DNA of 64,000 nt, from assembly GCF_044647545.1 (NCBI RefSeq), contig NZ_CP172818.1. One strand, written 5' to 3'. Every line of letters starts with the position of its first letter. Within the stretch, counting starts at the first letter, position 1. Below the pieces are notes generated by a model. It was not told where the DNA came from. It did no database searches and was given only the letters and a program-made list of their open reading frames with translations. This stretch comes from Escherichia coli (GTDB lineage: Bacteria > Pseudomonadota > Gammaproteobacteria > Enterobacterales > Enterobacteriaceae). Below are positions 6,587 to 6,660 of this stretch, in pieces. Made by a program: the position numbers and the translations under genes.

Positions 6587-6615
6587 TTGTCCGTGCAATA
6601 GCTCAATAATAGAAT
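6587..6615 (+). promoter_or_regulatory. flu (agn43) promoter: -35 ttgtcc (6587-6592), 17-bp spacer, -10 tagaat (6610-6615)
   Basis: Sigma70-like hexamers with correct spacing immediately upstream of the GATC cluster. Confidence 0.5.
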
Positions 6616-6660
6616 AAAACGATCAATATCTATTTTATCGATCGTTTATATCGATCGATA
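6616..6660 (+). promoter_or_regulatory. Phase-variation switch: three GATC Dam sites (6621-6624, 6640-6643, 6653-6656) in the OxyR-binding region of flu
   Basis: Three GATC within 36 bp just downstream of the -10; matches the known Dam/OxyR epigenetic switch of Ag43. Confidence 0.8.

What the first reader, a model, noticed from the sequence alone, without database searches (positions are those of the whole stretch)
6587..6660. Intact Dam/OxyR epigenetic phase-variation switch upstream of flu
Three GATC sites (6621, 6640, 6653) lie within 36 bp immediately downstream of a sigma70-like promoter (ttgtcc -17- tagaat). This is the arrangement in which Dam methylation and OxyR binding compete to set Ag43 ON/OFF states. 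All three sites and the promoter are intact, so the adhesin should be phase variable in this strain.
Basis: partly seen in the sequence, partly recalled or inferred. Interest (0 to 1): 0.4.

Follow-up and report, generated by a model that had tools for sequence, protein, structure and literature searches.

The report
Known Ag43 Dam/OxyR phase switch
This is the textbook E. coli K-12 on/off switch for the Ag43 (flu/agn43) adhesin, three Dam methylation sites inside an OxyR repressor site just after the promoter, present here base-for-base identical to K-12, so it is real but ordinary.

Summary
GATC lies at 6621, 6640 and 6653, a 36-bp span that starts 5 nt after a TTGTCC-17-TAGAAT promoter (6587-6615). 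Three GATC in 36 bp is not rare in itself: about 0.9 such clusters are expected per 64 kb. The case rests on identity. Window 6523-11609 is 100% identical to E. coli K-12 MG1655, covering the promoter, the GATC block, the 227-nt leader and the whole flu gene (Ag43, 1039 aa, 100% identical). In divergent agn43 alleles and in cah, the three GATCs, their 19/13-nt spacing and the -10 hexamer (one allele has AAGAAT) stay fixed while the flanks drift. The literature describes this block as the site where OxyR repression and Dam methylation compete to give heritable OFF and ON states.

Dam and OxyR lie outside the window, so phase variation in this strain is inferred.

By-products:
- The flu coding sequence has no GATC (about 8.6 expected), and this holds across alleles.
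- The same triple-GATC module precedes an unrelated, uncharacterised two-gene cassette in small islands of Klebsiella, Raoultella and E. coli.

Verdict: already known, low interest.

The parts
6587..6592 (+). -35 hexamer TTGTCC of the flu (agn43) promoter
   Evidence: Promoter scan. Identical to K-12. Invariant in 5 divergent agn43 alleles; TTGCGT in cah.
6610..6615 (+). -10 hexamer TAGAAT, 17-nt spacer from the -35
   Evidence: Promoter scan. Conserved in 6 of 7 aligned sequences; AAGAAT in ZH193.
6621..6624 (.). GATC-I, a Dam target at or next to the inferred transcription start
   Evidence: Invariant across alleles. The Rfam IS102/IsrC match begins at 6619.
6640..6643 (.). GATC-II, a Dam target
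   Evidence: Invariant across alleles, 19 nt after GATC-I.
6653..6656 (.). GATC-III, a Dam target
   Evidence: Invariant across alleles, 13 nt after GATC-II.
6619..6655 (.). Best match to the OxyR tetramer consensus (ATAGnTnnnAnCTAT-N7-ATAGnTnnnAnCTAT), 14 of 20 positions. It spans GATC-I and GATC-II and reaches 3 bases into GATC-III. A second 14/20 register lies at 6641-6677.
   Evidence: Consensus scan. Dyads at 6635-6644/6652-6661 (10 nt, 100% complementary) and 6599-6628/6636-6665. The footprint itself comes from the literature, not from tests here.
6619..6822 (+). flu leader RNA, equal to the IsrC / IS102 RNA (Rfam RF00124)
   Evidence: cmscan 252.6 bits against a gathering score of 46, full-length match to model positions 1-206. 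The fold is stable, z = -5.2. [quoted passage not shown]
6782..6815 (+). Intrinsic terminator inside the leader: a 12-bp stem (8 G-C pairs), a GTTT loop and a T6 run
   Evidence: Terminator scan. Present in the MFE and centroid folds. Conserved in all alleles and in cah.
6843..9962 (+). flu / agn43 coding sequence: Ag43 autotransporter adhesin, 1039 aa
   Evidence: 100% identical to K-12 WP_000820410.1. The mechanical ORF start at 6687 is not conserved in other alleles.
6657..10022 (.). GATC-free stretch of 3366 bp downstream of the switch, covering the whole flu CDS. A second GATC-free stretch, 4904-6620, lies upstream.
   Evidence: The CDS has 0 GATC against 8.6 +/- 2.2 expected from synonymous-codon shuffles, and none of 2000 shuffles reaches 0.

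Best explanation
This is the canonical agn43 (flu) epigenetic phase-variation switch of E. coli K-12, intact.

Mechanism:
- A sigma-70 promoter (TTGTCC-17-TAGAAT) starts transcription at about 6619-6622.
- The first ~40 bp of the transcribed region carry one OxyR binding site that contains three GATC sequences.
- When the GATCs are unmethylated, OxyR binds, blocks transcription and shields the GATCs from Dam. This is the heritable OFF state.
- When Dam methylates them, OxyR cannot bind and the promoter fires. This is the heritable ON state.
- After each replication the hemimethylated DNA is open to competition between Dam and OxyR, which gives rare stochastic switching.
- Transcripts that start must then read through an intrinsic terminator in the 227-nt leader. 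The terminated product is IsrC/IS102. Only read-through transcripts reach the Ag43 coding sequence.

Shown here: the sequence anatomy, full identity to K-12, conservation of the elements across alleles, and the identity of the leader RNA and terminator.

Taken from the literature: OxyR binding, methylation sensitivity, switching rates and leader termination.

Inferred: that this particular strain phase-varies, which needs dam and oxyR, both outside the window.
For: - Identity. Window 6523-11609 (5087 bp: promoter, GATC block, leader, flu, most of yeeR) has no difference from MG1655. Ag43 is 1039/1039 identical.
- Context. The K-12 CP4-44-type order is kept: GTPase-family remnant, agn43, yeeR, yeeS.
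- Prevalence. The 141-bp core occurs in 1904 of 5426 complete E. coli genomes, always chromosomal bar one place.
- Conservation. Across alleles down to 83% identity over this region, and in cah, the -10 (AAGAAT in one allele), the three GATCs and their spacing are invariant, while mean column identity is 78%.
- OxyR site. Consensus match 14/20 over the GATC block, with dyad symmetry.
- Leader. Rfam RF00124 at 252 bits, terminator.
- Literature for the mechanism: PMC3764049, PMC4872104, PMC2909390, PMC13337833, PMC2328253, PMC5389530.
Against: - Nothing in the sequence argues against it.
- dam and oxyR are not in the window, so the trans factors are assumed.
- The OxyR consensus match is only moderate. 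In the 64-kb window a score of 14/20 or better is reached at five start positions (three regions), two of them here, so it is weak evidence alone.
- The GATC cluster count is not significant by itself.
- The primary papers (Haagmans 2000; Waldron 2002; Wallecha 2002 and 2014; Kaminska 2010) were not held. The exact start site and footprint limits therefore rest on secondary citations and on the Rfam model boundary.
Confidence: 0.95

Rival explanations
1. The cis switch is intact, but the strain does not show Ag43 phase variation. Possible reasons are a defective or altered trans factor (a dam or oxyR mutation gives locked OFF or locked ON), or leader termination keeping output too low to matter.
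For: dam and oxyR are outside the window, so they are untestable here. dam mutants are locked OFF and oxyR mutants locked ON (PMC3764049, PMC2909390). The leader carries a strong terminator. The strain is not K-12 itself: flanks differ by 1-3.5%.
Against: dam and oxyR are core E. coli genes (established knowledge). The leader and terminator are identical to K-12, where phase variation is readily observed.
Confidence: 0.06
2. The three GATCs are a chance cluster in an AT-rich intergenic region, with no regulatory role.
For: About 0.94 such clusters are expected per 64 kb, and another one lies at 28937-28957 inside coding sequence.
Against: The block is identical to a region characterised by experiment. 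The GATCs and their spacing are invariant across alleles whose flanks have diverged. The extended motif is expected 0.01 times per window.
Confidence: 0.01
3. The GATC block acts mainly through another GATC reader, such as SeqA sequestration or Dam binding itself, rather than through OxyR.
For: Published work reports altered Ag43 switching in seqA mutants (Correnti 2002, cited in PMC13337833 and PMC4856963). Closely spaced GATCs are SeqA substrates (established knowledge).
Against: [quoted passage not shown]
Confidence: 0.02

Closest known systems
agn43 (flu) Dam/OxyR phase-variation switch of E. coli K-12 MG1655
   Same: Everything tested: 100% nucleotide identity from 6523 to 11609, covering the promoter, three GATCs, the leader/IsrC, the terminator and the Ag43 CDS.
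   Different: Only the flanks differ. There are 3 substitutions within 36-100 bp upstream of the -35 (6488, 6519, 6522) and about 3.5% divergence in the upstream GTPase-family remnant. The K-12 IS5 copy is absent at window position 2656.
Other agn43 alleles and cah (the EHEC calcium-binding Ag43 homologue)
   Same: Same -10, same three GATCs with 19/13-nt spacing, same leader terminator and same extended signal peptide MKRHLN....
   Different: Flanking and leader sequence diverge (78% mean identity, with indels). The proteins are 70-89% identical to the one here.
Salmonella gtr (P22 and chromosomal) and opvAB Dam/OxyR switches
   Same: Same two players, OxyR and Dam, with GATCs inside OxyR half-sites and heritable ON and OFF methylation patterns (PMC2909390, PMC4856963).
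   Different: Those loci have four GATCs and alternative OxyR half-site pairs upstream of the promoter, with OxyR acting as activator or repressor depending on the site used. agn43 has a single repressor site downstream of the -10 with three GATCs.
pap-family Dam/Lrp switch
   Same: An epigenetic switch built on competition between Dam and a DNA-binding regulator at GATCs.
   Different: It uses Lrp and PapI, with two GATCs 102 bp apart in two mutually exclusive Lrp site sets (PMC2909390). None of that is present here.
IsrC / IS102 RNA (Rfam RF00124)
   Same: Full-length match at 6619-6822, 252.6 bits.
   Different: None. It is best read as the prematurely terminated flu leader rather than an independent sRNA gene (PMC5389530 citing Wallecha 2014).

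Membership tests
agn43-type Dam/OxyR phase-variation switch | Three GATC sequences closely spaced in the regulatory region (motif acGATCa-N12-tcGATCgt-N4-atcGATCga) | tested here: met
   GATC at 6621, 6640 and 6653. The motif matches 6619-6658 (motif from PMC2328253, which prints tg where the window has tc).
agn43-type Dam/OxyR phase-variation switch | GATC block located at or just downstream of the transcription start of a sigma-70 promoter, so that bound OxyR represses | tested here: met
   TTGTCC-17-TAGAAT ends at 6615 and GATC-I starts at 6621. The IsrC model 5' end is at 6619. The start site itself was not mapped here.
agn43-type Dam/OxyR phase-variation switch | An OxyR binding site overlapping the GATCs | tested here: inconclusive
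   The consensus match is 14/20 at 6619-6655, with dyad symmetry, but that score has low specificity. Binding is established for the identical K-12 sequence only through the literature.
agn43-type Dam/OxyR phase-variation switch | Downstream gene encodes an Ag43-family self-associating autotransporter | tested here: met
   6843-9962 encodes 1039 aa, 100% identical to K-12 Ag43. RefSeq annotates it as agn43.
agn43-type Dam/OxyR phase-variation switch | Dam methyltransferase and OxyR present in the same genome | not testable with these tools
   Neither gene lies in the 64-kb window. No identical genome is in the collection (best matches 97.6-99.5%).
agn43-type Dam/OxyR phase-variation switch | Alternative methylation states of the GATCs and reversible ON/OFF expression | not testable with these tools
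   Needs methylation-aware sequencing or a reporter assay.
IsrC / IS102 RNA (RF00124) | Score above the Rfam gathering threshold over the full model | tested here: met
   252.6 bits against 46, model positions 1-206 of 206.
gtr/opvAB-type OxyR/Dam switch | Four GATCs in two pairs within alternative OxyR half-site pairs upstream of the promoter | tested here: not met
   There are only three GATCs, all downstream of the -10, and no other GATC between 4900 and 10023.
pap-type Dam/Lrp switch | Two GATCs about 102 bp apart within Lrp site sets, plus a PapI-like gene | tested here: not met
   The GATC spacing is 19 and 13 nt. No fimbrial or papI-like genes are adjacent.

The most novel reading that the evidence does not exclude
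The switch may be more than a local promoter device, for two reasons.

1. The Ag43 coding sequence is kept free of GATC in every allele sampled (observed 0, 0, 2, 0, 0 against 6-10 expected). This leaves the three regulatory GATCs isolated in about 5 kb. It could be selected to insulate the Dam/OxyR competition from processive Dam or SeqA traffic, or to weaken methyl-directed mismatch repair over a surface antigen.

2. The same triple-GATC module, with the same 19/13-nt spacing, sits upstream of an unrelated and uncharacterised two-gene cassette. That cassette lies in small recombinase-bearing islands with variable, defence-like cargo in Klebsiella, Raoultella and E. coli (third GATC lost in the Yersinia copy). 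This suggests a portable Dam/OxyR phase-variation cassette beyond the Ag43 family.

Neither point was found in the papers I could search. GATC-free stretches in mobile elements are known as a general phenomenon (PMC4659465).
Probability: 0.25. Interest if true: 0.5.

Novelty: already known. Interest (0 to 1): 0.1.

Why it matters
For the finding itself, little. It confirms that this K-12-like O16 strain carries the model Ag43 switch unchanged. Cultures should therefore be mixtures of Ag43-ON and Ag43-OFF cells, which is a practical warning for aggregation and biofilm experiments (PMC3764049). The two by-products could matter more if confirmed. A GATC-free coding region conserved across alleles would add a cis-context requirement to a classic epigenetic switch. 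An agn43-like module in front of other genes would extend Dam/OxyR phase variation to new loci and genera.

Tried and rejected
- Cluster statistics as proof: rejected. Three GATC in 36 bp is expected about once per 64 kb.
- OxyR consensus scan as proof: weak. A score of 14/20 is also reached elsewhere, and 45774-45810 reaches 16/20 inside the AT-rich O-antigen cluster.
- The minus-strand 'terminator-like' hit at 6647-6617: rejected as a terminator. It is the AAACGATC...GATCGTTT dyad of the OxyR region, with only 3 G-C pairs.
- The long mechanical ORF starting at ATG 6687 (1091 aa): rejected as the real start. The in-frame extension is broken by stops 75 nt upstream of the annotated ATG in three alleles. 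It also crosses the leader terminator, and RefSeq and K-12 start at 6843. It does explain why PMC2328253 says '32 bp upstream of the start codon'.
- Primary papers: Wallecha 2002 and 2014, Kaminska 2010 and Henderson & Owen 1999 were not held.
- Collection scans: the strict pattern with the AAAA prefix found nothing in genome contigs. The relaxed pattern found one genome, Raoultella. The viral-contig scan found nothing.
- Strain identification: no genome among the 5426 is identical. The best are K-12-like O16 strains at 97.6-99.5%. The differences look natural: 22 of 37 coding differences are at third codon positions, and 24 of 38 substitutions are transitions.
- Literature on a GATC-free flu gene: nothing specific found.

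Full report
**Observation**

The sequence at 6587-6660 reads ttgtccgtgcaatagctcaataatagaataaaacgatcaatatctattttatcgatcgtttatatcgatcgat.
- GATC occurs at 6621, 6640 and 6653.
- The scanner finds one sigma-70-like site in 6300-7000: TTGTCC (6587), a 17-nt spacer and TAGAAT (ending at 6615), matching 9 of 12 positions.
- GATC-I begins 5 nt after the -10. The three sites span 36 bp with start-to-start spacings of 19 and 13 nt. GATC-III ends 186 nt before the flu ATG at 6843.

The description is accurate.

**Is it more than chance?**

The count alone is not.
- Dinucleotide-preserving shuffles of the window give 0.94 clusters of three GATC within 36 bp per 64 kb. 60% of shuffles have at least one, and a second cluster exists at 28937-28957.
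- Shuffling only the AT-rich 121 bp around the site gives three or more GATC in 1.2% of trials.
- The extended motif CGATC-N14-CGATCGT-NN-ATATCGATC is unique in the window even with three mismatches allowed, against 0.01 expected.

The real evidence is comparative.

**What it is**

- A 401-bp query around the site hits 4089 of 5426 complete E. coli genomes, under features annotated 'agn43: autotransporter adhesin Ag43'.
- Aligned to MG1655, everything from 6523 onward is identical. The only nearby differences are at 6488, 6519 and 6522, upstream of the -35.
- A 12-kb comparison shows that 6523-11609 has no difference from K-12. The stretch 5259-6522 carries 44 differences and 11610-12000 carries 12. 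The K-12 IS5 copy is missing at window position 2656, while the IS2 copy is shared.
- The protein encoded by 6843-9962 is 1039/1039 identical to K-12 Ag43.
- The gene order matches the K-12 CP4-44 island: GTPase-family remnant, agn43, yeeR, yeeS.
- The window as a whole comes from an O16-type, K-12-like strain that matches no genome in the collection (97.6-99.5%). Its differences from K-12 look like natural divergence: 22 of 37 coding differences are at third codon positions, and 24 of 38 substitutions are transitions.

**Conservation**

- The 141-bp core is found in 1904 of 5426 genomes.
- I aligned six copies spread across the identity range: five agn43 alleles at 96% to 83%, plus cah of an EHEC-like strain.
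- The -10 hexamer (AAGAAT in one allele), AAAACGATC, CGATCGTT and ATATCGATC and their spacing are invariant, while the alignment averages 78% identity and carries indels in the leader.
- The -35 is invariant among agn43 alleles.
- The leader terminator hairpin and T-run are also conserved.

This is the pattern expected for functional cis elements.

**Mechanism**

The mechanism comes from the literature and applies by sequence identity.
- Dam methylates three GATC sites that overlap the OxyR binding site in the agn43 regulatory region.
- OxyR bound to unmethylated DNA represses transcription and blocks Dam (OFF). Methylation prevents OxyR binding (ON).
- dam mutants are locked OFF and oxyR mutants locked ON. 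Switching occurs at about 1e-3 (1e-2 to 1e-3 in another account) per cell per generation.
- The hemimethylated state after replication is the window for re-competition, and there is a single OxyR site acting as a repressor site.
- Sources: PMC3764049, PMC4872104, PMC2909390, PMC13337833.
- PMC2328253 quotes the motif acGATCa-N12-t[g]GATCgt-N4-atcGATCga as lying downstream of the transcription start. It matches 6619-6658, with tcGATCgt in the window.

My own test of the OxyR consensus gives 14 of 20 specified positions at 6619-6655 and again at 6641-6677. Dyads lie at 6635-6644/6652-6661 and at 6599-6628/6636-6665. This is compatible with an OxyR site but has low specificity, so I list it as inconclusive on its own.

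- Rfam places IS102/IsrC (RF00124) at 6619-6822, at 252.6 bits and full model length.
- An intrinsic terminator lies at 6782-6809 (12-bp stem), followed by T6. It is present in the MFE and centroid folds of the leader, z = -5.2.
- PMC5389530, citing Wallecha et al. [quoted passage not shown]

The switch output therefore passes a second checkpoint in the 227-nt leader. The 'sRNA' is best read as the terminated leader. The Rfam 5' boundary at 6619 and the spacing from the -10 both put the start at about 6619-6622, at GATC-I. I could not read the primary mapping papers.

**Limits**

dam and oxyR are outside the window, so phase variation in this strain is an inference, though a strong one given that both are core genes. 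No methylation data can be derived from sequence.

**By-product 1: a GATC-free gene**

- Between 4900 and 10023 the only GATCs are the three regulatory ones.
- The flu CDS has 0 GATC, against 8.6 +/- 2.2 expected from synonymous-codon shuffles. The minimum in 2000 shuffles was 2.
- Four other alleles, including cah (70-89% amino-acid identity), have 0, 2, 0 and 0 against 6-10 expected.
- GATC is the most depleted of the 256 tetramers in three of the five alleles and second or third in the other two. Some CGA- and TAG-containing words are also depleted, and TCGA is absent throughout.
- Other long ORFs in the window have 146 GATC against 165 expected, with z from -2.1 to +1.8. The neighbouring yeeR has 12 against 8.4-8.8 expected.
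- GATC-free stretches of at least 1 kb enriched in mobile elements are a known general observation (PMC4659465, PMC6602927, citing Henaut 1996). I found no mention of flu.

Whether this insulates the switch, lowers mismatch repair or is a relic of the gene's origin is untested.

**By-product 2: the module elsewhere**

- Among GTDB species representatives, the relaxed motif hits only Raoultella ornithinolytica NBRC 105727. The site lies 97 nt upstream of a 256-aa ORF with no Pfam hit.
- Homologues of that ORF occur across Enterobacterales.
- The triple-GATC module, with the same 19/13-nt spacing and an upstream ATAG-N6/7-ATAG, precedes the ORF in K. pneumoniae and in two E. coli copies. One E. 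coli copy has 18/13-nt spacing. In Y. enterocolitica the third GATC is lost. The module is absent before the distant Atlantibacter and Aeromonas homologues.
- In E. coli KMi029 the cassette lies in a roughly 9.7-kb island between yggS and yggR. The order is large serine recombinase, ResIII-like gene, module, two unknown genes, a PDC-S60-like gene and a small resolvase.
- Elsewhere the cargo is SLATT+SMODS, PAAR/pyocin or a reverse transcriptase.

This is a candidate new Dam/OxyR-controlled locus. It is not part of the window.

**Verdict**

The feature is the already known K-12 agn43 switch, unchanged. Interest is low.

Noticed in passing
window 6657-10022 and 4904-6620: The whole flu CDS (3120 bp) and 1.7 kb upstream contain no GATC. 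The CDS count is 0 against 8.6 +/- 2.2 expected from synonymous shuffles. The depletion recurs in four other agn43/cah alleles (0, 2, 0, 0 against 6-10 expected), but not in yeeR or other long ORFs of the window. TCGA is also absent from all five alleles.
   Followed up: partly
L013 5097-5133 (Raoultella ornithinolytica NBRC 105727); also L015, L016 and L019 9124-9159: An agn43-like triple-GATC module with the same 19/13-nt spacing and the core AACGATCAAT...GATCGTTnATATCGATC lies about 100-130 nt upstream of an uncharacterised 256-aa plus 118-aa gene pair. The pair sits in small recombinase-bearing islands with variable defence-like cargo (SLATT+SMODS, PDC-S60, PAAR/pyocin, RT). This is a candidate new Dam/OxyR phase-variable locus.
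   Followed up: partly
window 6619-6822: The annotated sRNA IsrC/IS102 (Rfam RF00124, 252 bits) is co-extensive with the flu leader, from the promoter's start region to the leader terminator. The three GATCs are therefore also the first ~38 nt of this RNA, and the GATC-II/III dyad forms a 5' hairpin in the predicted fold.
   Followed up: yes
window 6687-6842: A mechanical ORF extends flu upstream to ATG 6687 (1091 aa). One paper's '32 bp upstream of the start codon' corresponds to this ATG. The extension is not conserved in other alleles and crosses the terminator, so 6843 is the real start.
   Followed up: yes
window 1-12000 compared with K-12: The strain is a mosaic relative of K-12. 6523-11609 is identical to MG1655, the flanks are 1-3.5% diverged, the IS2 insertion is shared, and the IS5 insertion at position 2656 is absent. 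No identical genome exists among 5426 complete E. coli genomes. The O-antigen cluster is O16-type, at 97.7-98.6% identity.
   Followed up: partly
window 45774-45810: This is the best OxyR-consensus match in the window (16/20) and it contains a GATC (45777). It lies inside the AT-rich O16 O-antigen gene cluster and is probably a chance match.
   Followed up: no
window 24888-25011, 48005-48043, 57648-57697, 22524-22598: Other Rfam hits above gathering score: His leader (+), JUMPstart (-), algC RNA (-) and STnc240 (-). They are consistent with the his, O-antigen and colanic-acid region of the E. coli chromosome.
   Followed up: no
window 28937-28957: The only other cluster of three GATC within 36 bp in the window (three within 21 bp) lies inside a 355-aa ORF (28334-29401) that has 14 GATC against 12.9 expected.
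   Followed up: no
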